Assembly: GCA_016699045.1 (NCBI GenBank)
Contig: CP064957.1
Location: forward strand, 409,784 to 473,783
Source of the DNA: a bacterium
GTDB lineage: Bacteria > Babelota > Babeliae > Babelales > RVW-14
Direction: 5' to 3'
DNA: 64,000 nt
The notes under the pieces were generated by a model. The model did no database searches, was not told where the DNA came from, and saw only the letters and a list, made by a program, of their open reading frames with translations. Position numbers and translations under genes: made by a program. The number at the start of each line of letters is the position of its first letter. Position 1 is the first letter of the stretch. Of the stretch, positions 27,460-48,962 are shown one piece after another.

Positions 27460-29256
27460 TTATTTTTTGCCTTTTTTACCTTTGTATTCTTTCTTACCTT
27501 GGTATTTGTTGTATTTGTTGTATTTGCCACCTTGACCGCCTTGAGCTGCCATTGCTTGAAGATTTTTAACTTGGTCCATATAATACTGAATTGGCTGCAA
27601 CGCTGCCTGAACTAATGGATTATTTTGCGACTTAATATTCTTCAAATTTTGTAAATCTTCTTGTACTACAGTCACTACGGCAACTTGCTCATCAAGAGAT
27701 GTATTTGCAGCGTTTGGCATCATTTTAGCTACCACAGCAATATCAGTCAAAGTCTTAACAATCAACTGTGGCATTAGAGCAACAGTATTTCTCGCAGCCT
27801 GAATTGTTGGATTTTGATTTAAAGCAGCTTGAACTGATGAATCACTTGAAACCTCAGGAACAGCCAAAGCAGCATTAACCGCTTGAACTGCCGGTACTAC
27901 AGCAACCATATTTTTTACATTATTCCAATCCGAGATGTTAACTACTAGGCTGGCCAATGTTGCAATGTCAGTCAATGCTTGCGTAATTTGTTGAGCTGAC
28001 GCTGCTGATGTTCCAGAAACTTGAGTAACACCTTGTGGCACAACAAGAGCCGCTCTAATTGCTGGCGTCAAAGCAGCCACAACTGATGGATCATTAGCCA
28101 CAACCGGATCTGTTAAATCGTTGTTAACTGTTTGAACGGCTGACGTCATAGGAGCACCGGTAACTCCTGCATTAACAAGAACACTCAACGCAGCAATATC
28201 GCTCAATGTCCGCGTAACCGCTGGATTTGCAACTGGAGCTGGACCTGCCACTACGACTGGCGGCACTGGGTCAACAGAAACAACTACTGGAGGTACTGGA
28301 GTACCTGTTGGCGTTACTGGACTTACTGCAATCCTACCTTGTAAAGCAGTAATTGCTTGACTCAAAGCAGTTTGAATACTTGAATCCAACGATGGCATAC
28401 CTTGGAATGCTTGCAACGCATTAAGAGCTAATTGAGCTGGCGAAGAACCTGGAGCAGGGTTTGCCAACGCACTCAAAGCCGCTACTATTTTATCAGCTGC
28501 TACTTTTTCAGCTGCTGTTTTTTCAGCCAATATTTGAGCTGCCGCTTGTGTTGCTTGAGCTGCTGCTTGAGCTGCTTTATCTGCTGCTTGAGCTGCTTTT
28601 TCAGCTGCTGCTTGAGCTGCTGCCGTTGCATCAGGCGTTCCAGTCGAAGCTGCTACCGCCGCTGCTTGCGTCGCTGTCGCTGCTGCTTGCGTTGCAACCG
28701 CTGCTGCTTGTGTTGCTGCTGGCGTTCCTGTCGCTGCAGCTGTTACTGCTGCTTGTGTTGCTGCAGCTGCTGCTGTCGTTGCAGCTACTGCTGCTGCTGC
28801 CGACGTACCAGTCGCTGCTGATTCAGCTACTGCTTGCGTTGCCGAAGCTGCTGCTTGCGTTGCTGCTTGAGTTGCTGCCGCTGCTACCGGTGCCGAAGGA
28901 GTTGACCCCACTGCCGTCAAGCTTGCAATTACGGGAGTAATTGCTTTTTGATCAGCTTTTGATAACAATGGGGAAGAACTTAAAAATTGAAGCAATGTCT
29001 GTAATTGAGTAACACTCGCTGCATGTTCGCTTATCAATTGCATTAGCAAATTAGCAAACGCTTGCTGCGTTTGAGCAGTAAAAGTACCCGCGCTATTAGA
29101 AGTAGCCAACGATGTAACATTATTTATCAATGTACTATCAATCGATTGTCCACTGAATTGATTGATCGAATTTTGAACTGACGCATCATCTGCGTAAGCC
29201 ATGCTGGTTGCCAACATCGCAACCCCAGCAAGTGATTTTATAAACTTCTTATTCAT
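27460..29256 (-). CDS. Secreted Ala/Thr/Gln-rich repeat protein with Lys-rich C-terminal tail (family A, member 1)
   Basis: Signal peptide MNKKFIKSLAGVAMLATSMAYA. Conserved module AGTFTAQTQQAFANLL...SSSPLLSKADQKAITPVI. ~138-aa A/T/Q tract. Three ~65-aa LTDIA..L..LV repeats. Tail GGKYNKYNKYQGKKEYKGKKGKK. Confidence 0.6.
   Translation of the reverse strand: MNKKFIKSLAGVAMLATSMAYADDASVQNSINQFSGQSIDSTLINNVTSLATSNSAGTFTAQTQQAFANLLMQLISEHAASVTQLQTLLQFLSSSPLLSKADQKAITPVIASLTAVGSTPSAPVAAAATQAATQAAASATQAVAESAATGTSAAAAVAATTAAAAATQAAVTAAATGTPAATQAAAVATQAAATATQAAAVAASTGTPDATAAAQAAAEKAAQAADKAAQAAAQATQAAAQILAEKTAAEKVAADKIVAALSALANPAPGSSPAQLALNALQAFQGMPSLDSSIQTALSQAITALQGRIAVSPVTPTGTPVPPVVVSVDPVPPVVVAGPAPVANPAVTRTLSDIAALSVLVNAGVTGAPMTSAVQTVNNDLTDPVVANDPSVVAALTPAIRAALVVPQGVTQVSGTSAASAQQITQALTDIATLASLVVNISDWNNVKNMVAVVPAVQAVNAALAVPEVSSDSSVQAALNQNPTIQAARNTVALMPQLIVKTLTDIAVVAKMMPNAANTSLDEQVAVVTVVQEDLQNLKNIKSQNNPLVQAALQPIQYYMDQVKNLQAMAAQGGQGGKYNKYNKYQGKKEYKGKKGKK
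28483..28896 (-). repeat. Low-complexity GCTGC/TTG-rich DNA encoding the A/T/Q tract
   Basis: Imperfect reiteration of gctgc(t/c)gc(t/a)tg(a/c/t)g units. All frames on the opposite strand are also open, giving spurious Cys/Leu-rich ORFs. Confidence 0.7.
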
Positions 29257-29276
29257 GATTAAATTCTCCTATTTTT

Positions 29277-30074
29277 TTAATTTTGATCAGCGGATTGATC
29301 ATCTACAACTGAGTCTTCTGTCTCGGCATTGTCTGCTGCTACAGTTGTACCTGATGTGGCAGTAGTGGTACTTTTGGTTACTTTTTTCCCTTTACCTTTT
29401 TTACGTATTTTTTTGCCTGTTTTTTGACTACCAACATTGCCTACAGCTTTTTTACCAGCTTTTTTCACTTTGCCTACTTTAACTTTTCCGGCACGAGCTT
29501 TCTTAATATTCTTAGCGACTTGAGCTTTCGTAGAAACTTGTTTCTTACCAACGGAAGGTTGCCCCAACGTTGGAACATTTTGCATAGCTTGTGGCAAATT
29601 CGGTATCAATGTCGAGATAACATATTGTTGTTGTGCTTGTGCCAAAAGAGGCGAAGTACTTGCTTGTACTAACAAATTGCGCATTGCAGTTGTAAGATCA
29701 TTATGTTCTTTTAATACTTGTGCAACGCCACTACCAACCGCACGATGCGTTTTACCGGTAAAATCGCCAGCATCTGCTTCTGAGGCCAATTTAACCAATT
29801 CATTTATTTTATCAGCGTGCGATTTGTTACTTAAATCTTGCAATGACTTTTGAATGCTTTCATCGGTAAGATCTTTGGTAGAGGCTTTTGCCGAACCAGC
29901 CGGTTTAACAGCGACTAGCTTTTTAACTTTAACTACCTTCTTAGCTTTTTTCTTACCCGTTTTACCCGTCTTGACTGTCTTGACTGTCGAGTCTGATTTA
30001 GCTGCAAACATGGCACTTGATGCCAACGTAAGGGCTATTAACAAGAGCCCACTCAAACTTATCTTCTTCATCAT
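29277..30074 (-). CDS. Secreted Lys-rich protein (family A, member 2)
   Basis: Signal peptide MMKKISLSGLLLIALTLASSAMFA. Module AGDFTGKTHRAVGSGVAQVL...STSPLLAQAQQQYVISTLIPNL. Lys-rich blocks after the signal peptide and near the C-terminus, plus an acidic end. Confidence 0.6.
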   Translation of the reverse strand: MMKKISLSGLLLIALTLASSAMFAAKSDSTVKTVKTGKTGKKKAKKVVKVKKLVAVKPAGSAKASTKDLTDESIQKSLQDLSNKSHADKINELVKLASEADAGDFTGKTHRAVGSGVAQVLKEHNDLTTAMRNLLVQASTSPLLAQAQQQYVISTLIPNLPQAMQNVPTLGQPSVGKKQVSTKAQVAKNIKKARAGKVKVGKVKKAGKKAVGNVGSQKTGKKIRKKGKGKKVTKSTTTATSGTTVAADNAETEDSVVDDQSADQN

Positions 30075-30274
30075 CGATCTCCTTATTATTTCGATTCCTC
30101 AGCTTTCGCTGTAATCTCTTCCACTTCCTTTACTACTTTCTTACTTATTTACTTGTCGCTCATAATGAGATGCTTTGGTAACAGCGTAAGATTCTGTTCC
30201 TGCACCAAAGTTTAAAAAATAGCCTGCACTATGTTTCCACTCATCTCATATCTCCTCTTTTCATCATAATTCAT

Positions 30275-31549
30275 TTAATTCACACTATTCGTTTTAGGAT
30301 TTTTTTTCATCATCTTTTTGCCAATCTTGGCTCCCTTTCGAGCGCCACTTTTTTGCTGTTGAGCTTTTTTCCGTTGTTTTTTAGTGCCTACTCTTTTGCC
30401 AGGCTTGGTTGGAGTACCCGCTTGATTATCACGTACTACCACCACAGGCTTGATCTGCTCCGGTATCATGGTCGAAGAAACGTACGTTTGTTGGTCTTTA
30501 GTTAAAAGTGGAGACGTACGCGCTGCATTAAGCAAATCAAGTGTTTTCTTTGCAATATCTTTACTTTGCGTAGCAAGCGCTACCAATGCATCCGCATATG
30601 CTTGCTGCGTTGCGGTACTAAAAGCACCCGCACTAGCCCCTGCTGTTAATTTTGACAAAAAGCGCAACCGATCATCAAGCAACGGCTGTTTGCTAATACT
30701 TGCCAGCAAGCGCGTTACGCGGTCATCAGTCAATACTTGCTGCGTCACGTCTGCCGACTCAACCATTGATGCATTTGCTACCGTCGCAACCGCTGGCGAT
30801 ACACCAAGCACATTTGCTTGTTTTAAATCTTTGAATTTGTCCAACGCTGGCAATAATTGCTGGCTTACATACTGACGACGCACCTTATCCAGCAAAGGTA
30901 CATTGCCTTGCAAAACGTTTCGCATCAACTCACGCAATTGCGCTTGTGCCTGATCAGACTGACTGGCGCGTTGATCGTACAACTGAACAAGTGATTTATA
31001 AAACATATCACGAATGCCAGCATTAAGAACCACTCGCAAGCCACCCTTGGTAGAAAAGTTAGTTGGATTTGCAAGCGCTGAAAGACTTTGCAAACTATCC
31101 TGAAAGGTAGTTTTTTGTGCTGCCGCCATAACAAGACTCTTTAAAAGTCTTGGCACCATGGTTTTTGCCACATACTTTTGCTGGACCGGAGAAAGCAATG
31201 AACTCGCTTGTGCTCGAGAAAGAATCGGCAACATGGCAAGCTGCGTACCTTCAGTTGTAGCCAATTTGTTGGTAGCATCAAGTAAATTACCAAAATCAGT
31301 TTTGGTTCTAGCATTAAATGTCGCCCTACCAGAACGGTCAAGCAACAAAGATAGCGCTTGAATTTTCTGATCCACAACTGCCATAGCCCCAATTTTGGTA
31401 AAATAACTCTTAATAAGGGTATCAATATCTGCCTGACTTGCAAAATTGTCTGGAATATTAAAAGCCGCAAAAGCAACGGAATGCATTGTCAGCACAGCTA
31501 CCGCCAGCAACACACACACTTTCCTTACCATTGAGCACAATGTCGTCAT
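30275..31549 (-). CDS. Secreted protein (family A, member 3) with 2-3 copies of the family module and a Lys-rich tail
   Basis: Signal/anchor VCVLLAVAVLTMHSVAFA. Modules ...SSLLSPVQQKYVAKTMVPRL, ...VPLLDKVRRQYVSQQLLPAL and AGAFSTATQQAYADALVAL...RTSPLLTKDQQTYVSSTMIPEQ. Tail GKRVGTKKQRKKAQQQKSGARKGAKIGKKMMKK. Confidence 0.6.
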   Translation of the reverse strand: MTTLCSMVRKVCVLLAVAVLTMHSVAFAAFNIPDNFASQADIDTLIKSYFTKIGAMAVVDQKIQALSLLLDRSGRATFNARTKTDFGNLLDATNKLATTEGTQLAMLPILSRAQASSLLSPVQQKYVAKTMVPRLLKSLVMAAAQKTTFQDSLQSLSALANPTNFSTKGGLRVVLNAGIRDMFYKSLVQLYDQRASQSDQAQAQLRELMRNVLQGNVPLLDKVRRQYVSQQLLPALDKFKDLKQANVLGVSPAVATVANASMVESADVTQQVLTDDRVTRLLASISKQPLLDDRLRFLSKLTAGASAGAFSTATQQAYADALVALATQSKDIAKKTLDLLNAARTSPLLTKDQQTYVSSTMIPEQIKPVVVVRDNQAGTPTKPGKRVGTKKQRKKAQQQKSGARKGAKIGKKMMKKNPKTNSVN

Positions 31550-31680
31550 GATACTCCTTCCTTATTATTACCGCCTACTACTTACAAAAATATCAAATAG
31601 CAATTACTAATTGCAATGATTTTAGTAAAAATTATAAGAACGAAAGCATTTTCAAGAATAAAAGCCTCAAGAATAAGCAA

Positions 31681-31709
31681 TTGACAGAGGCCCGAATATC
31701 CATTACATT
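31681..31709 (+). promoter_or_regulatory. Candidate sigma70-type promoter of the HMGR-HMGCS-thiolase operon
   Basis: TTGACA (31681..31686), 17-nt spacer, TACATT (31704..31709), about 55 nt upstream of the GTG at 31764. Confidence 0.3.
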
Positions 31710-31763
31710 CCACGATATTCTTCAAATTAGAGATAAACAAGCAAGCCAAAATAGACTGATCTC

Positions 31764-33041
31764 GTGGTGGTTACATTGAAAGACAAAAACAGTCGAATCC
31801 CTGCTTTTCATAAAAAATCCCTCAGCGAGCGTTTAAAATACGTCGAAACCTTTGCCAACCTTACTCATCAAGAAATCAAAGAGCTAGAGTCGGGGGCCTC
31901 CCTTCCCATTCCTCTCGCCGAAAAAATGAGCGAAAATGTCATCTCAGTCATGTCTTTGCCTTTTGGCGTCGCCACCAATTTCATGATCAACGGTCAAGAT
32001 TATCTGATTCCAATGGTCACTGAAGAACCAAGCGTCATTGCAGCCGCCTCGCACGGCGCCAAACTCGCGCGAAATGCCGACGGTTTTACCACTAGTTGCG
32101 GCTATCCACTCATGATTGGCCAAATATTGTTAGCAAATATATCCAATTCTGCTAACGCACTCGAAGCTTTGAACAACAAAAAAAGAGAGCTCCTTGCGCT
32201 TGCCAACCAACTCGACCCCATACTGCTCGAGCATGGCGGAGGGGCAGTAGATCTGACTGCTCAAGAGCTTGTACTCAACAAAGACCTATGCCTTTCTATA
32301 AAATTGCACGTGAATGTCGGTGATGCCATGGGCGCCAACATTGTTAACACCATGACAGAATTTATTGCACCACTCATTCAAAAAGTATGCGGTGGCCTGG
32401 TCAGATTGTGTATTGTTTCAAATTTTTCTCCCGATCGCTTAGTCCACGTTACCGGCACCTGGGACCAAGAAACGCTGGGGTTACCAACTATCGATGCTAT
32501 CATACAAGCCAGTGCCTTTGCAGCAGCCGATATCTATCGAGCCGTAACACACAATAAAGGAATTATGAACGGCGTTATTGCGGTCGCGTTGGCCACCGGC
32601 AACGATACCCGGGCCATCGAAGCAGGAGCACATGGGTACGCCGCTCTCACGGGCCGCTACCAACCACTTAGCTGGTATGAAAAAAATGAAGCAGGCGATT
32701 TAGTGGGACACCTAGCAATGCCCCTACCCATCGCAACCGTTGGCGGAATAACTAAAAGTCATCCAACTGCCTGTATCGCCAGAAAAATTCTTACCATTAC
32801 CAGCGCACAAGAACTTGCCGGCGTTACTGCAGCTGTAGGACTGGCACAAAACTTTGCCGCCCTGCGTGCATTGGTAACTGAAGGAATTCAGCACGGGCAC
32901 ATGCGACTGCACAGCCAAAACATTGCCATTACCGCGGGCGCTACCGGCCAGGCTATCGACAATATTGCCCACCAAATGATCACAAAGAAAAAAATTTCAG
33001 TTGCGCATGCGCGCACACTTTTGACGAAAGGGTCCCTATGA
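31764..33041 (+). CDS. mvaA: HMG-CoA reductase, class II
   Basis: ENVISVMSLPFGVATNFMINGQDYLIPMVTEEPSVIAAASHGAK, VGDAMGANIVNTM, GNDTRAIEAGAHGYA, EGIQHGHMRLH. About 425 aa with no membrane domain. GTG start. Confidence 0.9.
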   Translation: MVVTLKDKNSRIPAFHKKSLSERLKYVETFANLTHQEIKELESGASLPIPLAEKMSENVISVMSLPFGVATNFMINGQDYLIPMVTEEPSVIAAASHGAKLARNADGFTTSCGYPLMIGQILLANISNSANALEALNNKKRELLALANQLDPILLEHGGGAVDLTAQELVLNKDLCLSIKLHVNVGDAMGANIVNTMTEFIAPLIQKVCGGLVRLCIVSNFSPDRLVHVTGTWDQETLGLPTIDAIIQASAFAAADIYRAVTHNKGIMNGVIAVALATGNDTRAIEAGAHGYAALTGRYQPLSWYEKNEAGDLVGHLAMPLPIATVGGITKSHPTACIARKILTITSAQELAGVTAAVGLAQNFAALRALVTEGIQHGHMRLHSQNIAITAGATGQAIDNIAHQMITKKKISVAHARTLLTKGSL

Positions 33042-35244: not shown

Positions 35245-35340
35245 CCAGCACTTCTTTTTTGGCATAATTTTTTAGCGTGCTATAATCCAGTCATAACAAA
35301 AGATCGAAATCATTTTTTTTAAAATTATGGAGAATCTGTT

Positions 35341-35982
35341 ATGAAGAAAACATTTCACTACTCGCTAATTTTTGCTGTAATATTTGCCAGCACCGCCATA
35401 GCAGCAGGAACTGCTACAGAAAAAGAATTTTCCATCTGCCCAAGCATTCCCGATGACTTTTGCCTTGAAGACAAACAACTGATCACGGCGGTAAAAAAAG
35501 GGCTTCACGAAGCATTAGAACGAATTCTTCTTTTCCATAAAAATGTTAATCTTGAATATGAAGAAGGCTCGTTGCTTCATCATGCAGCGAGTGAAGGACA
35601 TCTTAAATGTGCTGAATTACTCGTTAATAACGGTGCTGATATTTCTGCCACCACACCACACGGCGGCACACCTCTCCATTGCGCTGCATGGAAAGGCTAC
35701 ACAGACATCGTACAATTTCTTTTGAATAATAATGCACCAATTAATGCAATTAATTTCATTGAACAAGCAACACCATTACATTGGGCAGCAAAACAAAATC
35801 ACACTAATTGCATAGCGCTGCTTCTAGCTGCCGGCGCCAACCCAACACTAAAAAATGCCACAAACAAAACAGCAGCAGATTACGCAGAAGAACTCGGTCA
35901 CCAAGAGCTTGCAGCCCTACTACGCACAGCAGAAATAACATGGCAAAAAGAACATAAGCAAAAAGCGTGTACCATATCATGA
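35341..35982 (+). CDS. Secreted ankyrin-repeat protein
   Basis: Signal peptide MKKTFHYSLIFAVIFASTAIAAG. ANK repeats SLLHHAASEGHLKCAELLVNNGADI, TPLHCAAWKGYTDIVQFLLNNNAPI, TPLHWAAKQNHTNCIALLLAAGANP. Confidence 0.9.
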   Translation: MKKTFHYSLIFAVIFASTAIAAGTATEKEFSICPSIPDDFCLEDKQLITAVKKGLHEALERILLFHKNVNLEYEEGSLLHHAASEGHLKCAELLVNNGADISATTPHGGTPLHCAAWKGYTDIVQFLLNNNAPINAINFIEQATPLHWAAKQNHTNCIALLLAAGANPTLKNATNKTAADYAEELGHQELAALLRTAEITWQKEHKQKACTIS

Positions 35983-36677
35983 AAAAAATATTATTAAAAA
36001 TAGGCTTACTGTTTGGCATATTTTTTAGCTTTGGATCGTTATTCTCAACAAACATTTCAGATATAGACATGTTAATGTCGCTCAATTTTAATCAAAAAAT
36101 AGATACACTCAATCTACTCATTAAAACAACACCAAAAGACGCTTTAAATGAAGCAATACAACAAGATATTAAAGCTATTTTTATGAGTCTTTTTTACGAA
36201 CTGCCAACACAAGGGCCAGAAGAAAAACTTGCGTTCAAAAAACTCTTGCTCAATCTTTTGCAGTCACCACTTCCATCGCACGAGCAGCGAGATTACATAA
36301 CCAAATTGGTACTGCCACTCATAGACCCTTCAGGCAATTATGTTATTCCAACGCCAGAAACGCAACGCGCTCTACCAACAACAGAAGAAAAACAAGAACC
36401 GACAGTAAAAGATTCTGCCGAAGAACAAGGACGCATTTTGCAGGAACCACTCATGGTTCCTGTCATTACCAAAGCATGGGTGGTAAATGAAGATGGCAAC
36501 CGTGAACAAATAACTGATATTACCTTTAGAACTATCGCACCAAAAACAGCGCAACCAACATCAGAAAAAAAAACAACGGGTGCCCCGCCAAGTATCATAC
36601 CAACGCCAGAAGAAGGCGTGCGCTTTGGCAAAGGTCGCAGGCCACTGAGCAAACGAGCAGGCATTTATCGCTGCTGA
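35979..36677 (+). CDS. Hypothetical secreted protein, possible distant relative of family A
   Basis: The ATG at 35979 overlaps the ankyrin stop (ATGA). Signal peptide MKKILLKIGLLFGIFFSFGSLFS. The segment LLQSPLPSHEQRDYITKLVLPLI resembles the family A motif SPLL..DQQ.Y....(I/V)P. Basic C-terminal end. Confidence 0.45.
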   Translation: MKKILLKIGLLFGIFFSFGSLFSTNISDIDMLMSLNFNQKIDTLNLLIKTTPKDALNEAIQQDIKAIFMSLFYELPTQGPEEKLAFKKLLLNLLQSPLPSHEQRDYITKLVLPLIDPSGNYVIPTPETQRALPTTEEKQEPTVKDSAEEQGRILQEPLMVPVITKAWVVNEDGNREQITDITFRTIAPKTAQPTSEKKTTGAPPSIIPTPEEGVRFGKGRRPLSKRAGIYRC

Positions 36678-37238: not shown

Positions 37239-37258
37239 ACTTAGAACATACCTATTTA

Positions 37259-39331: not shown

Positions 39332-42300
39332 TTATTCTTTAACCTGGCAGTTATCGCAGGTTTCATGCAAGTTTGCAACGCGAACATTCTTACACGTATC
39401 CTCATCTACCAACACTTTTGCTCGTCCGTTTTCATCCTGCATTTGCGCAGCCCTTGCATAAAGCTCAGGAGATACCGTAAACGATTTGTCTGAATCTAGA
39501 CACGGCATCACGTTTGTCCACAAAGACGAACGATGTGGCAATTGCCTCCAACGACGAGTACCATCTTCACACTTAAATACATCTACATTTGCTTCAGCAT
39601 GCGGCGCAAGAGCCCACGCCGTTTTATCTTTATTTGCAAAAAGTTCATTGCCATCATCAAGAGAGCAACAGTCATGATCCGCTAGCTCACAGGAAGCTGG
39701 GGCTGTATTTAGTAGCCACATGTGTTGTGCAGGATCCCACGTTGCAAAACGTGCACCATCATTCCACGTCACCAATTGAGATTTTGCAACGTCAGTTGGG
39801 CTGAAAAGCTCAAATTGACTGGCTTGCTCATTCAACTTAAACAACCGATTATCCGGGCCCAAACAATATTCTTGTCCCGCAAAGTCTTTACAATCAGGAA
39901 CATTGGCCCATCGTCCGGTTTCGTCTTCACTTTCTCCGCGATGCCAATATTTCACTGCATTATTTTCAGCGTCACTGTCTTCATTAATGCAAAACAATGC
40001 AGAGTCATTGTTGCAATCATCAGACATTAAAACCCATTCAGTCAAATCATCATTAAGTATAAAGACGCGACCATCTGGCCCCATACACATGCCATCGCGT
40101 TCATTACCAGTACACATTGGCGCATCATACCAACCATAATCATCACAATCTGAATGCCAATAATAAACATCGCCATTTAGATCACAATATGCCAAATTAC
40201 CTGCGTTATCAAAAAAGCAATCAGAACCGCTTAACGAAACCCACGCATTAGCATTATCATTTGGTATAAAGATTTTACCATCTTTACCAACAAATTTACC
40301 CGCACAGACTTCTGATGATTCCTCATCCCAATACGGAACATCTTGCCACGAAAGTACACCATCCTCAAAATGGCGGTAAAAAATACGCCCATTTTGCAGC
40401 ATACAATCTGCCTCTTCAAGCGTACATGGCATTCCCTCAGTCCAAACACCAGAATCTTTTTTTGAATAAAACGTTGTTGCATAATCGGTTCTGGTATCAA
40501 CTTCACAGATACCAGCACTCAAATCACACGGTGGATTTAACGAACAATGACCATTTTCATCACAAAATACATTTATCTTTTTGCCAGCTTTATTAACAAA
40601 ACGATACAATACTTGTTGATCATTCCAATCTTCAGGCGTATTTTGCCACTGCTGATTTGCCGCACTCCAAAATTCCAAAACACCGCCTAGATCGCATACT
40701 TCTCCCGATACACCAACACCACATGGAGAAACCTCACTATACGTTCCATCAGAACGCAAATAAAGCTTGAGATCACCAACACGACAAAGCACCGAATCTT
40801 TTTCACATGAAGGCTCTAAGCTCCATTGATTGCCATGGCGATACAGAATCGTTTTTTCATCACTTTGCCTACAATATGGCACAGATGATTTATCGCCACA
40901 TAAATCGGCCGGCTTCCATCCATCATTGCCAAACCAAAAATACGCACCATCTCCAAATCTAATCAAGCGAACATCTAGTGCAACATCAAGATTTAAAAGC
41001 CACAGCGTCTTGCCATCAAGCGTACCAGCATACAGTCTATTGCCATCATCAAGTGTACAATAGCCCTTTGTTTGACCAGTAAGCCTCATTAACAATCCAC
41101 CACTATTCGCTTTTTTACAAGCCTGCGGTGCATCATTAATAAGCCACTTCTTTTGCTCAGGATCCCAGGTTGCGTAGTTTCTACCATCGCCAAAATCAAC
41201 TAAACGAGATTTGATTACATCTTCAGGTTCTTTTAACTCAACAAAGTATCCGGCAGCATTGCGTTGAAATAACGTACCATCAACGCCCACACAATAATTA
41301 AGGTCGGCAAAATCATCACAAGAAGGGATATCACTCCACCAGCAGCCATTACCCATATTCTTCCAATATTTAACCTTGCCATCTTTGGTACAGTAGCTTA
41401 GGGTCGTTCCTTGAATCATGCACTTACTTGCATCTTCAAGACGAACCCAGCCCGTGCAATCATCATTTGGTATAAAAATACGTCCATCAGGTCCTTTAAA
41501 AACACCTTGGTGCGATACAGACCAATCCCACGCTGGCGTATCTTCCCAAGAACTGGTTCCATTCTTTATGTGAGGATAGTACACGGCATCATTTTCAAGA
41601 ACGCAGTATTTGTCCGAGTACGCATCGCACGGCATACCCTCAGTCCAACTCGAAGCATCTTTTTTTCTGAAAAATTCAGTCCCATCAACAATGCAAATTC
41701 CTTCACGCGGTTGGCAAGGAAATTTGACGCTGCAACTACCATCTTTGTTGCAAAAAACTAAAACGCCACTTTGATCAGATTTAATAAAGCGATAGAGCTT
41801 TTTGTTTGCAGCCCAATTAACCGGTTTATTCTGCCATTTTTTTTCTTGGTAATTCCAAAATTCTATGATGTTTTCATCAAAAATACAGACAGCCTCTGAG
41901 TGCTCGCCATCAGCACACGGCGACGTTTCTTTATACGATCCATCTTCATGAAGGTAAAATTTTAAATCATCAACAGTACAAATTTTAACACCATTGCCAC
42001 ATGGCGGGGTCAGCAGCATATCATTGCCATGTCGGTACAATCGCAAGCCATCTGGCAAATCACAATATAGCTTATCTCTATCACAAAAAGGTTTTTCAAC
42101 TCCTTCGCGAATCACCGGCAAGTTTTGAAAACACAAGCGACCGTCTGGTAAAAAATGAAATCCTTTTTTTCCAACGGAACAATGCCATGCGCCCGGAGTT
42201 ACATCGCCAACAAAAGCTAAGTTTTTCCCATTACAAAGTATTATTGGCAACAAACTTGACCCATCATTTTTCGACGCATTAATACAAGAAAAATCAATCT

Positions 42301-43237
42301 TATCATTAATCGAATATTCTTGTTTTTTGCAACGAATTTGCCATGCATTTATACACGTAGGTCCTGCAAACAGGTGGGTATCGCATTGATTTGGATTCCA
42401 TAGCGCATCTTTTACATCATGAGCTTTTTCTGAAATCGCCACACGATTTTCATAAATGCCAGCGCCTACCAACAATGCCAACAAACCATACCCACAAGCT
42501 TTGATGACCCATGATTGACTTTGAGCAGACTCATCGTCATACAAAATATGCGGACAATCAAGAATTTGATCGCCATTAATAAACGTCTCCGTAGGAAATG
42601 ATTTTGTTTCCATCGATTCTTTTTCATCGTCATATGAAATCAGAATCGTTACAAGTGGTGATTTTTTGACAAGAGCACCACCTGACCTATCATTCGTCAA
42701 TCGAACTTGTATCGAACGTGGATCAAAAAAATCGACAATCAAATTAAATAAGCGCTCAAGAAATTCTCGTTTATTATAATTTTTTACACTCATATGACAA
42801 TATGTACCACCACCATCATGCCTGTCAGCACGCTCACACACGGCAGCATTAATTAACATCAATTGCTGCTGAATTTGATCTTGAATACCAGGTAGCTCTG
42901 GCATTCTTGGCGTCAGCAACTTATCAAGCTCATCGGCAGAAAAACGAAACGCTTCACTGTATGCAAGATCAGTATAAAGATGTGCCATAACAGCAGGCAT
43001 CATCTCTGCTTGCAGCCGACTCAGTGATCGTTTTTGTAAATCTGTTAATTGATTTCCCCCGTCAAACACTACTTTTTTAAAAATGCTTTTCCATTTGGCA
43101 TCAAGATCAAACTGACACCGTTGTTTCAGAAAATTATTAAATTGATGATCGTACACAACATATTCATGCTTTACTGCATTCAATGACATTGAACATAAAA
43201 AAAGAACACTGAACAACAGCGCACGTGGCATACCCAT
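39332..43237 (-). CDS. Giant secreted Cys/Trp/Asp-rich protein with two tandem ~360-420-aa repeats, no recognisable domain
   Basis: 1301-aa uninterrupted ORF. Signal peptide MGMPRALLFSVLFLCSMSLNAV. One hydrophobic stretch at aa ~247-262. Repeat 1 is aa ~390-750 (nt 40988..42070) and repeat 2 is aa ~787-1210 (nt 39608..40879). The two repeats are alignable along their length. Confidence 0.7.
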   Translation of the reverse strand: MGMPRALLFSVLFLCSMSLNAVKHEYVVYDHQFNNFLKQRCQFDLDAKWKSIFKKVVFDGGNQLTDLQKRSLSRLQAEMMPAVMAHLYTDLAYSEAFRFSADELDKLLTPRMPELPGIQDQIQQQLMLINAAVCERADRHDGGGTYCHMSVKNYNKREFLERLFNLIVDFFDPRSIQVRLTNDRSGGALVKKSPLVTILISYDDEKESMETKSFPTETFINGDQILDCPHILYDDESAQSQSWVIKACGYGLLALLVGAGIYENRVAISEKAHDVKDALWNPNQCDTHLFAGPTCINAWQIRCKKQEYSINDKIDFSCINASKNDGSSLLPIILCNGKNLAFVGDVTPGAWHCSVGKKGFHFLPDGRLCFQNLPVIREGVEKPFCDRDKLYCDLPDGLRLYRHGNDMLLTPPCGNGVKICTVDDLKFYLHEDGSYKETSPCADGEHSEAVCIFDENIIEFWNYQEKKWQNKPVNWAANKKLYRFIKSDQSGVLVFCNKDGSCSVKFPCQPREGICIVDGTEFFRKKDASSWTEGMPCDAYSDKYCVLENDAVYYPHIKNGTSSWEDTPAWDWSVSHQGVFKGPDGRIFIPNDDCTGWVRLEDASKCMIQGTTLSYCTKDGKVKYWKNMGNGCWWSDIPSCDDFADLNYCVGVDGTLFQRNAAGYFVELKEPEDVIKSRLVDFGDGRNYATWDPEQKKWLINDAPQACKKANSGGLLMRLTGQTKGYCTLDDGNRLYAGTLDGKTLWLLNLDVALDVRLIRFGDGAYFWFGNDGWKPADLCGDKSSVPYCRQSDEKTILYRHGNQWSLEPSCEKDSVLCRVGDLKLYLRSDGTYSEVSPCGVGVSGEVCDLGGVLEFWSAANQQWQNTPEDWNDQQVLYRFVNKAGKKINVFCDENGHCSLNPPCDLSAGICEVDTRTDYATTFYSKKDSGVWTEGMPCTLEEADCMLQNGRIFYRHFEDGVLSWQDVPYWDEESSEVCAGKFVGKDGKIFIPNDNANAWVSLSGSDCFFDNAGNLAYCDLNGDVYYWHSDCDDYGWYDAPMCTGNERDGMCMGPDGRVFILNDDLTEWVLMSDDCNNDSALFCINEDSDAENNAVKYWHRGESEDETGRWANVPDCKDFAGQEYCLGPDNRLFKLNEQASQFELFSPTDVAKSQLVTWNDGARFATWDPAQHMWLLNTAPASCELADHDCCSLDDGNELFANKDKTAWALAPHAEANVDVFKCEDGTRRWRQLPHRSSLWTNVMPCLDSDKSFTVSPELYARAAQMQDENGRAKVLVDEDTCKNVRVANLHETCDNCQVKE

Positions 43238-44936: not shown

Positions 44937-44949
44937 TAATTCAGACACC

Positions 44950-45615: not shown

Positions 45616-45722
45616 AATAAATACACCAAAGCATACGATTTCTCTGGCCATTTTGGACTCCTCATGTTATGATTTTCATAACATATTATCTGTTTTATTT
45701 GAGAACAAAAAAGAGTTCCATT

Positions 45723-46229: not shown

Positions 46230-46250
46230 TTAGACATAAAGGAACCCACT

Positions 46251-47237
46251 ATGATTTTTCTCATTTTTTTCGGCATTCTCTTTTTGTTCTTGGCTTTTTT
46301 GCTGATCAAAGCAACGTACGTTGTCAAACAAGCTGAAGTTGTAATCATCGAACGCTTTGGTAGTTTTCAACGTGTTTTAAAGCCAGGCCTCAATTTTGTT
46401 ATGCCATTTGCAGACAAACCCCGCCAAGTATTGTGGACATTTATTCAAGAAGAAGCACGCAGCGGAAAAATGTATCGATTCTCTCGCTATATTGAACGTA
46501 TTGATTTGCGCGAAAGCGTTTACGATTTTCCAAAACAAAACGTTATTACCAAAGACAACGTTACCATGGAAATTAACGCCCTGCTTTATTTCCAAATTAC
46601 CGATCCAATAGCTGCAACGTACGAAATAGACAACTTGCCACAAGGTATTGAAAAACTCACCCAGACAACCTTACGTAACATTATAGGCTCATTGGATCTT
46701 GATGAATCGCTCACTTCACGCGATATGATCAACGAAAAACTTACGCTCATTCTTGATGAAGCAACCGATAAATGGGGCGTTAAAGTTAATCGCGTTGAGC
46801 TCCAAGAAGTCAACCCACCACGCGATATTAGAGATGCGATGGAAAAACAAATGCGAGCAGAACGTGATCGCCGTGCCCACATTTTAGAAGCTGAAGGTTT
46901 TAAAACAGCTGCGGTTCTGGAAGCTGAAGGTAAAAAGAGTGCGGCCATCTTAGAAGCTGAAGGCGTGCAAATGTCTCAAGTCATGCGCGCAAAAGGTGAG
47001 TCTGATGCTCGTCGCTTGCTGGCGCAAGGTGAAGCAGATGCTATAAAATTGGTGCGAGATGCAATTCCAAACCAAGACCCACTGCCATACATGACCGCCA
47101 TCAATTACATCAAGGTATTACCAGAAATGATGAAAGATAAAAATGGCAAACTCATTGTAATTCCGTATGAAGCAAGTGCTGTTATGGGTTCATTAAGTGG
47201 CATTAAAACACTTTTTAAGGACCTTGATAAATCTTAA
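46251..47237 (+). CDS. SPFH/band-7 (stomatin/prohibitin-like) protein
   Basis: N-terminal anchor, then VVKQAEVVIIERFGSFQRVLKPGLNFVMPF...DFPKQNVITKDNVTMEINALLYFQITDP...RAERDRRAHILEAEG. Confidence 0.9.
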   Translation: MIFLIFFGILFLFLAFLLIKATYVVKQAEVVIIERFGSFQRVLKPGLNFVMPFADKPRQVLWTFIQEEARSGKMYRFSRYIERIDLRESVYDFPKQNVITKDNVTMEINALLYFQITDPIAATYEIDNLPQGIEKLTQTTLRNIIGSLDLDESLTSRDMINEKLTLILDEATDKWGVKVNRVELQEVNPPRDIRDAMEKQMRAERDRRAHILEAEGFKTAAVLEAEGKKSAAILEAEGVQMSQVMRAKGESDARRLLAQGEADAIKLVRDAIPNQDPLPYMTAINYIKVLPEMMKDKNGKLIVIPYEASAVMGSLSGIKTLFKDLDKS

Positions 47238-47262
47238 TTAATAAAAAAAGGAGCTTACAAAG

Positions 47263-47559
47263 ATGGTTAACCGCATTAAAATTCCTGTTATGTTTTTAGG
47301 CGGCTTACTGTTTTTTTGGTGGGCATTTTTATTATTTGCACGTAACAACACGGAAGATGCTCACCTTTATAGTAAAAACGCTTACTGCCAAAATACCAGT
47401 AAAATTTATGCTGATTTGGGCGAACTTGCGGAAAAAAGGCAAGACTTCCAGCAAGCAATTAGACACTATACAACAGCGCTGAATTTTCAGTCAGATCATG
47501 ACATTACTAAAAAACTTAATGCATGTTACAAGTTTCTGAATACAACTCATGCTACTTAA
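47263..47559 (+). CDS. Small membrane-anchored protein with one TPR-like motif
   Basis: 98 aa. Anchor IPVMFLGGLLFFWWAFLLFA. LGELAEKRQDFQQAIRHYTTALNF is TPR-like. Confidence 0.4.
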   Translation: MVNRIKIPVMFLGGLLFFWWAFLLFARNNTEDAHLYSKNAYCQNTSKIYADLGELAEKRQDFQQAIRHYTTALNFQSDHDITKKLNACYKFLNTTHAT

Positions 47560-47590
47560 AGAATAAACACGTTTTCTTATATTTATCGTA

Positions 47591-47623
47591 AAAAGGCACG
47601 GAACAAAATACCGTGCCTTTTTT
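47591..47623 (+). terminator. Rho-independent terminator
   Basis: Stem ggcacgg (47595..47601) / ccgtgcc (47611..47617) with a 9-nt loop, followed by TTTTTT. Confidence 0.55.
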
Positions 47624-47751
47624 GATTATAACCATAGAATCTAGACTATTTTTTATTCTAAAAAACATTATTTGCTTTTTTTTTAGTAACCATGCTACTG
47701 TACCTAAACAAGTAATTTTTTAAAATAATCTTTCATAATGCGAAGGAAAAA

Positions 47752-48423
47752 ATGCTTAAAAAAATATTCGTAGCATTGGGAATCTTCGTAAATATTTATG
47801 CTCCTTCCAATTACGGAGCAGCACCTCTAACGGCACGTCCCAAGCCCACCCACGAAGAATTAATCAAAAAAATGGTTTTTCTTACCGCGTCAGAAATCAA
47901 AATTCCCTACCTGTTATTTCAAGAAATACACGAAAAAATAGTCTACCTTTGTGAAATGTTTTATCGGGCAAAAACATATCACAAGCAAGAAGAAGCAGCT
48001 TGTTTGTTAATGTTATTAGAAGCTTTTCATACAAACGCACCAAAGACAGCCTTTTCTGAAAATGTCATCATCGCGGCTACGCGTTATGGCCTTACCAAAT
48101 CTTGCAAGCAATCACTCTTCTTCATTGGCGATGATAATACCATGTCGGACATGATTTATCACAGCATTCAACTGATACTTTACCAACAACAATCAGGCTA
48201 TTTTTGGTATAACATGATCTCAGATCTTGAGTATTGTAAAGCTGTGCAAATCTCAGATATCGTCAATCAATACAATCAACCTAAAAAAGAATCACAAAAG
48301 AAAAAAAATATTCGAATCAAAAAAAATGCAAAAAAAAGAATTGTCCTAACTAAAAAAGCAAAAAACAAATTCTGCCACAGGTCTTCTGAAAAGCACATAA
48401 GATTATGGAAAAAAAAACAATAG
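47752..48423 (+). CDS. Hypothetical secreted protein (family B, member 1) with Lys-rich tail
   Basis: Signal peptide MLKKIFVALGIFVNIYAPSNYGAA. Core IPYLLFQEIHEKIVYLCEMF...YGLTKSCKQSLFFIGDDNTMSDMIYHSIQLILYQ...FWYNMISDLEYCK. Tail KKESQKKKNIRIKKNAKKRIVLTKKAKNK. Confidence 0.55.
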   Translation: MLKKIFVALGIFVNIYAPSNYGAAPLTARPKPTHEELIKKMVFLTASEIKIPYLLFQEIHEKIVYLCEMFYRAKTYHKQEEAACLLMLLEAFHTNAPKTAFSENVIIAATRYGLTKSCKQSLFFIGDDNTMSDMIYHSIQLILYQQQSGYFWYNMISDLEYCKAVQISDIVNQYNQPKKESQKKKNIRIKKNAKKRIVLTKKAKNKFCHRSSEKHIRLWKKKQ

Positions 48424-48962
48424 CAGCTTTAAGCCTCATAAATATTTTTTATACAATAAGCGGATACGGAACAGCACGCGAACTTTTTCTGTACAGATCT
48501 AAAAGCGAATTATCTGCCGCTCAACAAAGCGTCATTATCATTGTTGCAACAAATACTCAAATTCCTTTTTTATATTTTAAAGAAATAGAAAAAAAAATTG
48601 ATACCATATTTTCGCATCTCGCTCATATAAAAAAATTACAACCACGCGAAGAAGAACGCTTTTTTAATTTTTTCAAACACCTTCTTGCCGCTCGACCAGG
48701 CCAAGCTCTTACTCACGACATTATGGTATTTGCTCAAGAATTTGGTTTAACACAATCAATGCATAATGCTTTTTTTCTTATCAAAAATAATGGCATGATA
48801 ACCGACATGGCACATCAATGCATTCAAGTAATTATTACCGAGCTCATTGAAGATTTTTATTGTCATTTCACTATTAATGAATTAGAAAAAATGAGAAAAA
48901 TAAAAATTAAAAAAAATAAAAACCAATATGGTAAAAAAGAATCAATTTTTCAACACAATTAA
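48405..48962 (+). CDS. Hypothetical secreted protein (family B, member 2) with Lys-rich tail
   Basis: Signal peptide MEKKTIAALSLINIFYTISGYG. Core IPFLYFKEIEKKIDTIFSHL...FGLTQSMHNAFFLIKNNGMITDMAHQCIQVIITE. Tail MRKIKIKKNKNQYGKKE. 19-nt overlap with member 1. Confidence 0.55.
   Translation: MEKKTIAALSLINIFYTISGYGTARELFLYRSKSELSAAQQSVIIIVATNTQIPFLYFKEIEKKIDTIFSHLAHIKKLQPREEERFFNFFKHLLAARPGQALTHDIMVFAQEFGLTQSMHNAFFLIKNNGMITDMAHQCIQVIITELIEDFYCHFTINELEKMRKIKIKKNKNQYGKKESIFQHN

What the first reader, a model, noticed from the sequence alone, without database searches (positions are those of the whole stretch)
27460..48962. Lys-rich C-terminal tails are shared by otherwise unrelated secreted-protein families
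Family A members end in GGKYNKYNKYQGKKEYKGKKGKK, KKARAGKVKVGKVKKAGKK...KKIRKKGKGKK and GKRVGTKKQRKKAQQQKSGARKGAKIGKKMMKK. Family B members end in KKESQKKKNIRIKKNAKKRIVLTKKAKNK and MRKIKIKKNKNQYGKKE. The protein at 35979..36677 ends in GKGRRPLSKRAG. Convergent acquisition of polybasic tails on signal-peptide proteins suggests a common function. Options include anchoring to an anionic surface (peptidoglycan, LPS or host membrane phosphoinositides), nucleic-acid binding, an NLS-like host-targeting signal, or a second-step secretion signal.
Basis: inference. Interest (0 to 1): 0.55.

Follow-up and report, generated by a model that had tools for sequence, protein, structure and literature searches.

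The report
Polylysine tails on secreted Dependentiae proteins
The lysine-rich tails are real and non-random, but they mark one large unannotated family of exported helical-repeat proteins of intracellular Dependentiae bacteria (plus a small orphan family), not secreted proteins in general, and most likely act as electrostatic tethers to negatively charged surfaces.

Summary
The tails exist at the stated coordinates. Five of 61 window proteins have at least 8 Lys in a 20-residue window of their last 60 residues, against 0.17 expected from shuffling. The proteome is not Lys-rich (6.9% K).

The "unrelated families" claim shrinks. The protein at 35979 is a fourth Family A member, so only two families remain in the window (A and B). 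None of 13 other signal-peptide proteins has such a tail.

Family A has no Pfam, NCBIfam or PDB match. It is built from 1-25 copies of a roughly 95-residue module, and 110 representative clusters were found. All loci with a taxonomic label look like Dependentiae/Babeliales. In 64 of 104 representatives there is a polybasic tract, and in 53 of those it lies after the last module (K:R 7.4:1).

AlphaFold2 predicts the module as a confident five-helix bundle and the tail as disordered. Orthologues keep the tail's position and charge. Tails grow by 9/18-bp tandem repeats and A-run slippage; an A7/A8 indel truncates one orthologue. Family B is an orphan trio whose K-rich stretches sit at non-homologous positions.

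Best reading: a disordered polycationic tether to a polyanionic surface, either the bacterium's own envelope or a host membrane or glycan. This is inferred, not shown.

The parts
27460..29256 (-). A598: Family A protein of 598 aa. Signal peptide (MNKKFIKSLAGVAMLATSMAYA|DD), one N-terminal Family A module (about res 22-119), an Ala/Thr/Gln low-complexity centre and three C-terminal repeats.
   Evidence: (P0018)
27463..27531 (-). A598 polybasic tail GGKYNKYNKYQGKKEYKGKKGKK, truly C-terminal. It is made of 9- and 18-bp tandem repeats and is followed by a terminator-like GC hairpin with a T run.
29277..30074 (-). A265: Family A protein of 265 aa. Signal peptide, N-terminal polyK tract, one module, C-terminal polyK tract, then an acidic end.
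29919..29999 (-). A265 N-proximal polyK tract (KSDSTVKTVKTGKTGKKKAKKVVKVKK) directly after the predicted signal-peptide cleavage site. Conserved in orthologue P0016.
29379..29519 (-). A265 C-proximal polybasic tract (NIKKARAGKVKVGKVKKAGKK...KKIRKKGKGKK). It contains the A7 run whose A8 variant truncates the orthologue in L018.
29280..29378 (-). A265 Thr-rich then acidic terminal segment (TKSTTTATSGTTVAADNAETEDSVVDDQSADQN). It is conserved at DNA level in L018 beyond that locus's frameshift.
30275..31549 (-). A424: Family A protein of 424 aa (identical to P0001, IPF37_01955). Signal peptide and three modules (about res 40-144, 137-245, 266-375). Transcribed divergently from HMG-CoA reductase.
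30278..30409 (-). A424 polybasic tail (res 381-424, net charge about +17). AlphaFold2 predicts it as disordered. Position and charge are conserved in Babeliales orthologues (motif KKQ.K...QKSG.R.G.K.GK).
35979..36677 (+). A232: fourth Family A member (module at res 37-117), with a signal peptide.
36615..36674 (+). A232 C-terminal basic motif GVRFGKGRRPLSKRAGIYRC. Mixed Arg/Lys and conserved at sequence level in P0025 and P0059 (RRP..K.AGI.R). Not a polyK tract.
47752..48423 (+). B223: Family B protein with a signal peptide and a core of about 160 aa. No homologue outside its own genome was found.
48280..48420 (+). B223 K/N/I/R-rich tail (res 177-223), 58% A with A6-A9 runs. Predicted disordered. 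Its last 19 nt overlap the B185 start.
48405..48962 (+). B185: Family B paralogue.
48882..48959 (+). B185 K-rich end (LEKMRKIKIKKNKNQYGKKESIFQHN), 63% A with short tandem repeats. Its K-rich part aligns to a non-K-rich stretch of B223.
48973..49926 (+). Third Family B paralogue with a Ser/Pro-rich tail and no polybasic tract. It serves as a negative control within the family.

Best explanation
Shown: the window comes from a Dependentiae (TM6) Babeliales-like intracellular bacterium. Four of the six cited proteins belong to one large, unannotated family of Sec-signal-bearing proteins. The family is built from 1-25 copies of a roughly 95-residue module, predicted to fold as a five-helix bundle. 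In this family a Lys-dominated, intrinsically disordered tract placed after the last module is a recurrent architectural element. The tract is usually reached through an Ala/Thr/Pro/Gly-rich linker and is often followed by a short Ala/Thr/acidic end. Orthologues keep its position and net charge. Its length changes through short tandem duplications and slippage in A-runs.

Inferred: the tract works as a non-covalent polycationic tether that holds the exported helical-repeat protein on a polyanionic surface. That surface could be the bacterium's own outer membrane (LPS) or envelope, or a host membrane or glycan coat. The folded modules, or added domains such as a tectonin lectin propeller, would then project outward and make the specific contacts.

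Family B is a genome-specific tandem trio. Two of its copies acquired K-rich ends independently, by the same mutational route, and possibly for the same purpose.
For: Identity of the genome:
- Housekeeping genes are 68-86% identical and syntenic to a Candidatus Babeliales genome.
- The closest A424 relative is from Babeliales.

The family:
- Pairwise BLASTP and hhalign link A424, A265, A598 and A232.
- A profile search with the tails excluded finds 110 representative proteins with 1-25 modules each.
- There is no Pfam, NCBIfam or PDB-sequence hit.

Architecture:
- 64 of 104 representatives have a tract with at least 8 K/R in 20 residues.
- In 53 of those 64 the tract lies after the last module, and in 49 of the 104 representatives it lies within the last 60 residues.
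- K:R is 629:85 in the tracts, against 1.75 in the window proteome.
- 76 of 104 pass the crude signal-peptide rule.

Structure:
- AlphaFold2 gives the module pLDDT of about 95 (five helices) and the tail pLDDT of 55-62 with no secondary structure.
- Hydrophobic moment is low and mean hydrophobicity strongly negative, so the tails are electrostatic rather than amphipathic.

Conservation:
- A424, P0002 and L010 tails align, with net charges of +17, +13 and +11.
- A265 and P0016 keep both tracts.

Specificity:
- 0 of 13 other signal-peptide proteins in the window and 2 of 43 in the enlarged sample have such tails.

Surface or host context:
- The family member P0029 fuses a tectonin/Hyd_WA propeller to the modules and an AKKPVAKK tail.
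- Linkers are Ala/Thr/Pro/Gly-rich.
- Neighbouring signal-peptide ankyrin proteins end in a polybasic stretch plus a CaaX box. This implies that exported proteins of these bacteria meet host membranes.

Precedents: the Lys-rich C-terminal domain of HBHA binds heparan sulfate (PMC3293801), and the Arg-rich C-terminal domain of PE_PGRS3 is tied to host-cell adhesion and acquisition of anionic phospholipids (PMC8007152, abstract).
Against: - No binding partner is shown. Every functional step is inferred.
- About 40% of family representatives have no polybasic tract, and many end right at a module. The tract is therefore dispensable for the family's core function.
- The tracts are indel-prone, as expected also for neutral low-complexity sequence.
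- The background sample (window plus about 20 loci) is small and centred on Family A genes.
- Signal peptides were called with a crude rule.
- The polyK tract of A265 directly after the signal peptide would hinder Sec export in E. coli-type systems (own knowledge). Export of that member is therefore uncertain.
- Own-surface and host-surface binding cannot be distinguished.
Confidence: 0.5

Rival explanations
1. Neutral by-product. The tails are low-complexity expansions produced by replication slippage in A-rich runs at the 3' ends of genes. They are tolerated because disordered ends of exported proteins are under weak constraint, and they have no specific function.
For: - A-runs of 6 or more occur at 23 per kb in tail DNA against 2.5 per kb in other CDS.
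- 9- and 18-bp tandem repeats lie inside the A598, A265 and B185 tails.
- An A7/A8 difference truncates the A265 orthologue in L018.
- Tail length differs between close orthologues.
- About 40% of Family A representatives lack a tract.
- The K-rich stretches of B223 and B185 sit at non-homologous alignment positions, and the third paralogue has none.
Against: - The tracts are confined to a few families. None of 13 other signal-peptide proteins and none of 36 non-signal-peptide proteins in the window has one, although A-runs exist elsewhere.
- In 53 of 64 cases the tract sits after the last module.
- The tract persists across more than 50 clusters that are less than 50% identical to each other.
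- Net charge and a sequence motif are conserved between orthologues whose full-length proteins are 52-58% identical.
- K:R of 7.4 far exceeds the proteome ratio of 1.75.
- Tail DNA (48-63% A) is far more A-rich than intergenic DNA (34% A).
Confidence: 0.2
2. Host-directed nucleic-acid or nuclear targeting. After delivery into the host, the polyK tract acts as an NLS or as a histone-H1-like DNA/RNA-binding tail, making the proteins nucleomodulin-type effectors.
For: - Every tail contains K-K/R-x-K/R patterns.
- Some family members carry AKKPVAKK-type repeats, which resemble H1, AlgP and PhaF tails (own knowledge), for example P0029, P0076 and P0085.
- CaaX-ended signal-peptide ankyrin proteins nearby suggest that exported proteins reach the host cytosol.
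Against: - The NLS pattern is met trivially by any polyK tract and does not discriminate.
- Tracts of 20-50 near-homopolymeric Lys far exceed what an NLS needs.
- The proteins have Sec signal peptides, and some are giants of 2,000-4,700 aa with up to 25 modules. These are poor candidates for nuclear import.
- No DNA-binding fold was detected.
Confidence: 0.12
3. Sorting or translocation signal. The polycationic tract is recognised by a second-step secretion pathway, or it acts as a cell-penetrating polycation that carries Sec-exported proteins across the outer or host vacuolar membrane.
For: - The tract has a consistent C-proximal position.
- A T2SS/T4P-type ATPase is encoded in the window at 53856-55097.
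- Dependentiae export very many signal-peptide 'effectors' without a described injectisome (PMC6561590, and own knowledge).
- A subfamily ends in [ILPVM]P[LM]A-COOH after the tract, 6 observed against 0.04 expected.
Against: - Most signal-peptide proteins, including all five signal-peptide ankyrin proteins in the window, lack the tract.
- About 40% of family members lack it.
- The tract is often not terminal (median of 41 residues follow it).
- Known T2SS substrates have no linear signal, and Lys is a poorer cell-penetrating residue than Arg (both own knowledge).
Confidence: 0.08
4. Covalent or topological role. One version is that C-terminal Lys residues are cross-linked to peptidoglycan, as in Braun's lipoprotein. 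The other, for A265, is that the polyK next to the hydrophobic N-terminus makes it a signal anchor with the protein kept in the cytoplasm.
For: - A598 ends in Lys (...GKKGKK).
- A265 has about +12 net charge just after its hydrophobic segment.
Against: - Only A598 ends in Lys.
- No lipobox Cys is present in any member.
- Most family tails end in non-basic residues.
- Other members have neutral or acidic early mature regions typical of exported proteins.
Confidence: 0.03

Closest known systems
Mycobacterial heparin-binding haemagglutinin (HBHA) and laminin-binding protein: Lys/Ala/Pro-rich C-terminal domains
   Same: An alpha-helical body is followed by a disordered, Lys-dominated C-terminal repeat tract that binds polyanions (heparan sulfate) and mediates adhesion (PMC3293801). 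Some Family A relatives carry very similar AKKPVAKK repeats (P0029, P0076, P0085).
   Different: - No sequence or fold relationship was found.
- HBHA has no Sec signal peptide (own knowledge).
- The window tails are K/G/Q-rich rather than K/A/P repeats.
- Family A bodies are modular five-helix bundles in 1-25 copies, not a coiled coil.
- Binding has not been tested here.
Polybasic-region membrane anchors (K-Ras4B polybasic region plus CaaX; Legionella AnkB CaaX or di-lysine; PE_PGRS3 Arg-rich C-terminus)
   Same: A C-terminal cationic stretch is used for electrostatic attachment to anionic membranes (PMC2916131, PMC5506055, PMC8007152). Neighbouring signal-peptide ankyrin proteins in this window and in L010/L021 do carry a polybasic stretch plus a CaaX box.
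   Different: - Family A and B tails have no Cys at position -4, so no prenylation box.
- The tracts are much longer (20-50 residues).
- The proteins carry Sec signal peptides. AnkB is instead translocated by the Dot/Icm T4SS (PMC13081727 for the system; own knowledge for AnkB).
Histone H1-like Lys/Ala/Pro tails of bacterial proteins (AlgP, PhaF/PhaM, Chlamydia Hc1, mycobacterial HupB)
   Same: These are Lys-rich low-complexity C-terminal tails attached to a helical domain, and they bind a polyanion (DNA). This comparison rests on own knowledge.
   Different: Those proteins are cytoplasmic and have no signal peptide. Family A and B proteins have N-terminal Sec-type signal peptides. No homology was detected.
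C-terminal cell-surface sorting signals ending in a basic cluster (LPXTG, PEP-CTERM)
   Same: A C-terminal location and positive charges on signal-peptide proteins.
   Different: Those signals need a motif plus a hydrophobic transmembrane helix before a short basic cluster. The tails here contain no hydrophobic segment.

Membership tests
Family A (new, unnamed: Dependentiae 'SPLL...QQxYV' five-helix module family) | At least one copy of the roughly 95-aa module (...F[DN]xxTQxAF...LLxxAxx[ST]PLLxxxQQxYVxxxM[IL]P) | tested here: met
   A424 has three copies; A265, A598 and A232 have one each. hmmsearch gives E from 9e-58 to 9e-16. hhalign for A232 gives probability 90%. Family B proteins and all other window proteins give no hit.
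Family A (new, unnamed) | N-terminal Sec-type signal peptide | tested here: met
   All four window members and 76 of 104 representatives pass a crude n/h/c-region rule. Many of the failures are N-terminally truncated metagenomic fragments. SignalP was not available.
Family A (new, unnamed) | Polybasic tract after the last module (frequent but not universal) | tested here: met
   A598, A265 and A424 meet it. A232 has only a short Arg/Lys motif. Family-wide, 53 of 104 representatives have the tract after the last module.
HBHA-type Lys-rich heparin-binding adhesins | Sequence homology to HBHA or K-A-P repeat units (KKAAPA/KKAAAKK) | tested here: not met
   No Pfam, NCBIfam or PDB-sequence match. 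The window tails are K/G/Q/Y-rich. K-A-P-like repeats occur only in some distant family members.
HBHA-type Lys-rich heparin-binding adhesins | Binding of sulfated glycans or other polyanions through the tail | not testable with these tools
   Needs heparin, LPS or lipid binding assays.
Polybasic + CaaX prenylated membrane anchors | Cys at position -4 followed by two aliphatic residues and X at the C-terminus | tested here: not met
   None of A598, A265, A424, A232, B223 or B185 has it. The neighbouring ankyrin protein at 35341-35982 (CTIS) and seven signal-peptide proteins with ankyrin repeats in L010/L021 do (Pfam Ank hits shown for the window protein and L021).
LPXTG / PEP-CTERM type sorting signals | Sorting motif plus a hydrophobic helix preceding the basic cluster | tested here: not met
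   There is no hydrophobic stretch in the last 60 residues. Mean hydrophobicity of the tails is -0.3 to -0.6.
Braun lipoprotein-type peptidoglycan attachment | Lipobox Cys at the signal-peptide cleavage site and a C-terminal Lys as the last residue | tested here: not met
   No lipobox is present in any member. Only A598 ends in Lys.
Classical NLS / di-lysine (KKXX) eukaryotic motifs | K-K/R-x-K/R pattern, or KKXX-COOH on a membrane protein's cytosolic tail | tested here: inconclusive
   The NLS pattern is present in all tails, but any polyK tract meets it trivially. Only B223 (KKKQ-COOH) fits KKXX formally, and no transmembrane segment precedes it.
T4SS positively charged C-terminal translocation signals | A substrate of a type IV secretion system that lacks a Sec signal peptide | tested here: not met
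   All members carry Sec-type signal peptides. No T4SS gene is in the window; the only secretion ATPase is T2SS/T4P type.

The most novel reading that the evidence does not exclude
The polylysine tract is a dedicated, slippage-tunable address label of Dependentiae. It would be a polycationic module that sticks Sec-exported giant helical-repeat proteins to host or vacuolar membranes, or carries them across, in a phylum with no described injectisome. Its length and reading frame would be switched on and off by A-run slippage (A7/A8), giving phase-variable surface or effector display.
Probability: 0.1. Interest if true: 0.75.

Novelty: new variant of a known kind. Interest (0 to 1): 0.4.

Why it matters
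Dependentiae are widespread, mostly uncultured intracellular parasites of protists. A very large share of their proteins carry signal peptides (44% in C. destructans, PMC6561590), and how those proteins are retained or delivered is unknown.

This work defines a large protein family with no Pfam, NCBIfam or PDB match in the libraries searched. At least 110 clusters were found, with members up to 4,728 aa and a module confidently predicted as a five-helix bundle. A polylysine tract is a recurrent appendage.

This gives concrete candidates for surface-coat, adhesin or host-membrane-binding proteins, and a simple testable handle: the tail. Together with the polybasic-CaaX ankyrin proteins next door, it suggests that electrostatic and lipid anchoring to host membranes is a theme in this phylum.

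It does not reveal a new mechanism. Polycationic anchoring tails are already known.

Tried and rejected
1. Global Lys richness as the explanation: rejected. K is 6.9% of window residues, and shuffles expect 0.17 tails against 5 observed.
2. A secretome-wide property: rejected on the available sample. None of 13 other signal-peptide proteins in the window has a tail, and 2 of 43 against 3 of 82 in the enlarged set gives p=1.0.
3. The 35979 protein as a third unrelated family: rejected.
4. Hidden homology between Families A and B: rejected (hhalign probability below 1%; improved HMM).
5. Family B tails as translated ordinary intergenic spacer: rejected. The tails are 58-63% A and spacers 34% A.
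6. Amphipathic-helix membrane insertion: not supported.
7. Structural analogues: Foldseek against PDB gave no match better than E=0.47 for the Family A module, only generic helical repeats, and nothing for Family B. PDB sequence searches were empty.
8. Pfam and NCBIfam gave nothing for any member.
9. Searches that led nowhere:
   - The word-indexed search with the A3 profile found one fragment only.
   - Family B has no homologue beyond its own genome.
   - The exact look-up of A424 failed.
   - The degenerate DNA pattern returned only 20 loci, 5 of them chance hits.
   - Cluster look-up gave almost no taxonomy.
10. No paper in the held library links Dependentiae with polylysine tails or CaaX boxes.
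11. Rfam found only two tRNAs, outside the region.

Full report
**Source of the window**

The window is 41% G+C. A424 is identical to a protein of a 1.45-Mb MAG contig (locus tag IPF37_01955), and its nearest relative is from a Candidatus Babeliales bacterium. A 21.5-kb locus of that Babeliales genome is syntenic with the window, with mevalonate-pathway genes, superoxide dismutase and the A424 orthologue in matching order. Housekeeping proteins are 68-86% identical. The window also encodes five ankyrin-repeat proteins with signal peptides and a T2SS/T4P-type ATPase. This fits published descriptions of Dependentiae (TM6), where 44% of C. destructans CDS carry signal peptides, ankyrin proteins included (PMC6561590).

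**Checking the observation**

All quoted tails are present. Three corrections apply.
- The basic block of A265 is followed by 33 Thr-rich and then acidic residues. A265 also has a second polyK tract right after its signal peptide.
- The protein at 35979 ends in a short mixed Arg/Lys motif (GKGRRPLSKRAGIYRC), not in polylysine.
- The third Family B paralogue (48973-49926) has a Ser/Pro-rich tail.

As a statistic I counted proteins with at least 8 Lys in any 20-residue window of the last 60 residues. Five of 61 window proteins of at least 100 aa qualify: A598, A265, A424, B223 and B185. Residue shuffles give a mean of 0.17 and a maximum of 2 in 2000. The window proteome is 6.9% Lys with K:R of 1.75. 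Only one protein has an internal tract of that density, and that is the N-proximal tract of A265.

**How many families**

BLASTP links A424 to A265 (E=1e-12) and to A598 (E=2e-5) through a shared module of about 80-100 aa. A profile of five module copies matches the 35979 protein at hhalign probability 90%, E=1.4e-6, and HMMs confirm this. That protein is therefore a fourth Family A member.

B223, B185 and the 48973 protein are tandem paralogues (E=7e-17). Families A and B show no relationship (hhalign probability below 1%), and an improved module HMM finds no further member in the window. The window thus holds two independent families, not three.

**What Family A is**

I searched 1.84 billion representative proteins with a module profile from which the tails had been excluded. 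This returned 110 proteins at E of 1e-3 or better and 56 at 1e-10 or better. They carry 1-25 module copies and are 44-4,728 aa long.
- None has a Pfam or NCBIfam family for the module, and there is no PDB sequence match.
- AlphaFold2 with a 44-sequence module alignment predicts a five-helix bundle at pLDDT of about 95.
- Foldseek finds only generic helical-repeat resemblances, with a best E of 0.47.
- Loci recovered with a degenerate DNA pattern are labelled TM6, Babeliales or 'bacterium'. Three are labelled 'uncultured Pseudomonadota', and at least one of them (L002) shares gene order with a Babeliales locus (L004).

**The tail as a family feature**

The figures below are, for 104 representatives of at least 150 aa.
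- 64 have a tract with at least 8 K/R in 20 residues.
- In 53 of those 64 the densest tract lies after the last module, and in 49 of the 104 representatives a tract lies within the last 60 residues.
- K outnumbers R by 629 to 85.
- A median of 41 residues follows the tract, so it is C-proximal rather than strictly terminal.
- 76 pass the crude signal-peptide rule.

Linkers between the last module and the tract have a median length of about 45 residues and are Ala/Thr/Pro/Gly-rich. Several tracts are near-homopolymeric, for example in P0006, P0041 and P0067. Others are AKKPVAKK-type repeats, in P0029, P0076 and P0085.

The A424 tail is predicted to be disordered (pLDDT 55-62), and so is the B223 tail (pLDDT below 40). 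Hydrophobic moments are low.

**Conservation and turnover**

The A424 tail aligns with its Babeliales orthologues (KKQ.K...QKSG.R.G.K.GK), with net charges of +17, +13 and +11. The full-length proteins are 52-58% identical over the aligned parts. A265 and P0016 share both tracts, and A232, P0025 and P0059 share RRP..K.AGI.R.

The tails are also mutationally unstable.
- A-runs of 6 or more occur at 23 per kb in tail DNA against 2.5 per kb in other CDS.
- 9- and 18-bp tandem repeats build the A598, A265 and B185 tails.
- In the metagenomic locus L018 the A265 orthologue stops early because an A8 run replaces the window's A7. Deleting one A restores a co-linear 255-aa protein ending in the same ...SADQN.

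**Is it a property of secreted proteins?**

In the window, 5 of 20 signal-peptide proteins and 0 of 36 other proteins have tails (Fisher p=0.004). All five belong to Family A or B, and none of 13 other signal-peptide proteins has one.

Adding about 16 Dependentiae-like loci gives Family A 10 of 27, other signal-peptide proteins 2 of 43, and proteins without a signal peptide 3 of 82. Other signal-peptide proteins do not differ from proteins without one (p=1.0). Family A differs from other signal-peptide proteins (p=8e-4).

Four of the five non-Family-A proteins with tails form a further small family with a ..DRR.ALF.. motif. These are L003 5386-6096 and 6175-7134, L014 19-918 and L005 577-1029. 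They lie beside Family A genes and are not detected by the Family A HMM. The fifth, an ABC-F-like protein in L011, only just reaches the threshold.

Polylysine tracts therefore recur in a few clustered families of proteins, most of them with signal peptides. They are not spread across the secretome. The sample is small and centred on Family A loci, and a whole-genome test remains to be done.

**Family B**

Family B has no homologue outside its own genome, no family or structure match, and a moderately confident helical core.

In the paralogue alignment, B185's K-rich stretch lies before the shared NQYxxKKES motif, opposite a non-basic stretch of B223. B223's K-rich stretch lies after that motif. 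The two stretches therefore arose separately. They are 58-63% A, against 34% A for co-directional intergenic DNA, so they are not simply translated spacer.

**Mechanism**

Shown:
- signal peptides, by a crude rule;
- a folded helical module;
- a disordered, Lys-dominated tract after the last module;
- conservation of position and charge among orthologues;
- restriction to a few families.

Inferred: the tract acts as an electrostatic tether to a polyanionic surface. Three observations support a surface or host interface.
- One family member fuses a tectonin/Hyd_WA propeller to the modules and the tail.
- The linkers have the low-complexity composition of stalks.
- Neighbouring signal-peptide ankyrin proteins end in a polybasic stretch plus a CaaX box. 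The window protein at 35341-35982 ends KQKACTIS, and seven proteins in L010/L021 end CVIC, CIIC, CAIC or CIIS. This motif only makes sense if exported proteins meet host prenyltransferases, as shown for Legionella AnkB (PMC2916131).

Precedents for Lys- or Arg-rich C-terminal anchoring and adhesion domains are HBHA (PMC3293801) and PE_PGRS3 (PMC8007152).

I cannot tell whether the target is the bacterium's own envelope or the host. The main rival is neutral slippage. NLS or DNA binding, a secretion or translocation signal, and covalent or topological roles are less likely, for the reasons given under the rival explanations.

**Verdict**

The tails are a family-level architecture, not a secretome-wide convergent signal. 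The kind of feature, a polycationic anchoring tail, is already known. The carrier family and its setting in Dependentiae are undescribed in the libraries I could search.

Noticed in passing
window 35341-35982 (+); L010 140-1213, 1229-1816, 1801-2715 (-); L021 11736-12866, 12903-13817, 13802-14389, 16502-17860 (+): Proteins with a signal peptide and ankyrin repeats end in CaaX-type boxes, mostly preceded by basic residues (KQKACTIS, KEKCVIC, SKKCIIC, KEKCAIC, NKKCIIS; the exception is HPMCIIS). They resemble Legionella AnkB and K-Ras4B, which implies host prenylation of Sec-signal-bearing Dependentiae proteins. No paper in the held library reports this.
   Followed up: partly
L018 about 1201-1215, compared with window 29379-29519: The A265 orthologue in a metagenomic relative is truncated (it is P0016, 213 aa) because an A8 run replaces the window's A7 inside the polyK-coding tract. 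Removing one A restores a co-linear 255-aa ORF ending in the same SADQN. This is either phase-variation-like slippage or an assembly error.
   Followed up: yes
L003 5386-6096 and 6175-7134 (-); L014 19-918 (-); L005 577-1029 (-): A further small protein family (shared ..DRR.ALF.. region), two members with clear signal peptides. It has K/G/D/H-rich tails such as KKDKHDKKDKHDKKDKPKK and GKKGKGKGKKKGKGKK. It always lies next to Family A genes and is not detected by the Family A HMM.
   Followed up: partly
Family A relatives P0024, P0061, P0062, P0067, P0078, P0088: After the polyK tract these proteins end in [ILPVM]P[LM]A-COOH (SGPPLA, IPMA, IPLA, LPLA). Six were seen against 0.04 expected from composition. 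Three others carry VPLE near the end. This may be a subfamily C-terminal signal or simply shared ancestry.
   Followed up: partly
window 30275-33041; L010 2948-5925; L021 8511-11557; L008 6-2170: A Family A gene is transcribed divergently from HMG-CoA reductase (head of an HMGR, HMG-CoA synthase, thiolase cluster, with a DUF35/OB-fold gene and mevalonate kinase nearby or following) in at least three genomes. The Family A proteins at this position are very different (424-518 aa with three modules, against 241 aa with one module). This suggests positional conservation with fast sequence turnover.
   Followed up: no
P0029 / L001 207-1442: One Family A relative fuses a tectonin/Hyd_WA beta-propeller (a lectin-like eukaryote-type domain) to the modules and an AKKPVAKK-type tail.
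   Followed up: no
window 48973-50390 (+): The ORF at 49890-50390 (Ser/Pro/Lys-rich) overlaps the end of the third Family B paralogue in another frame and continues its composition. It is probably one gene interrupted by a frameshift, real or from assembly.
   Followed up: no
window 39332-43237 (-): A 1301-aa Cys-rich protein with a signal peptide and an evident internal duplication (LYRHGN...SPC segments occur twice). It has no Pfam or NCBIfam match.
   Followed up: no
window 28481-28878 (within A598): The Ala/Thr/Gln low-complexity centre of A598 is built from many 12-87-bp tandem repeats. The long antisense ORFs listed there are artefacts of this composition.
   Followed up: no
window 7973-9778 (+): The TypA/BipA-like GTPase (named by eye, not tested) is the only protein without a signal peptide in the window with a strongly basic C-end (RLRKRYLKAGERKRK, Arg-rich rather than Lys-rich).
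   Followed up: no
L002, L007, L011: Three MAG contigs titled 'uncultured Pseudomonadota' carry Family A genes. L002 shares gene order and near-identical proteins with Babeliales locus L004, and L007 carries a similar Family A gene pair. The taxonomic label is probably wrong, at least for L002.
   Followed up: partly
window 48409-48423: B223 ends in KKKQ, which formally fits a eukaryotic KKXX di-lysine retrieval motif (compare AnkB-Paris, PMC5506055). No transmembrane segment precedes it, so it is probably a coincidence.
   Followed up: no
window 56358-56524 (-): Two adjacent tRNA genes are the only Rfam hits in the window.
   Followed up: no
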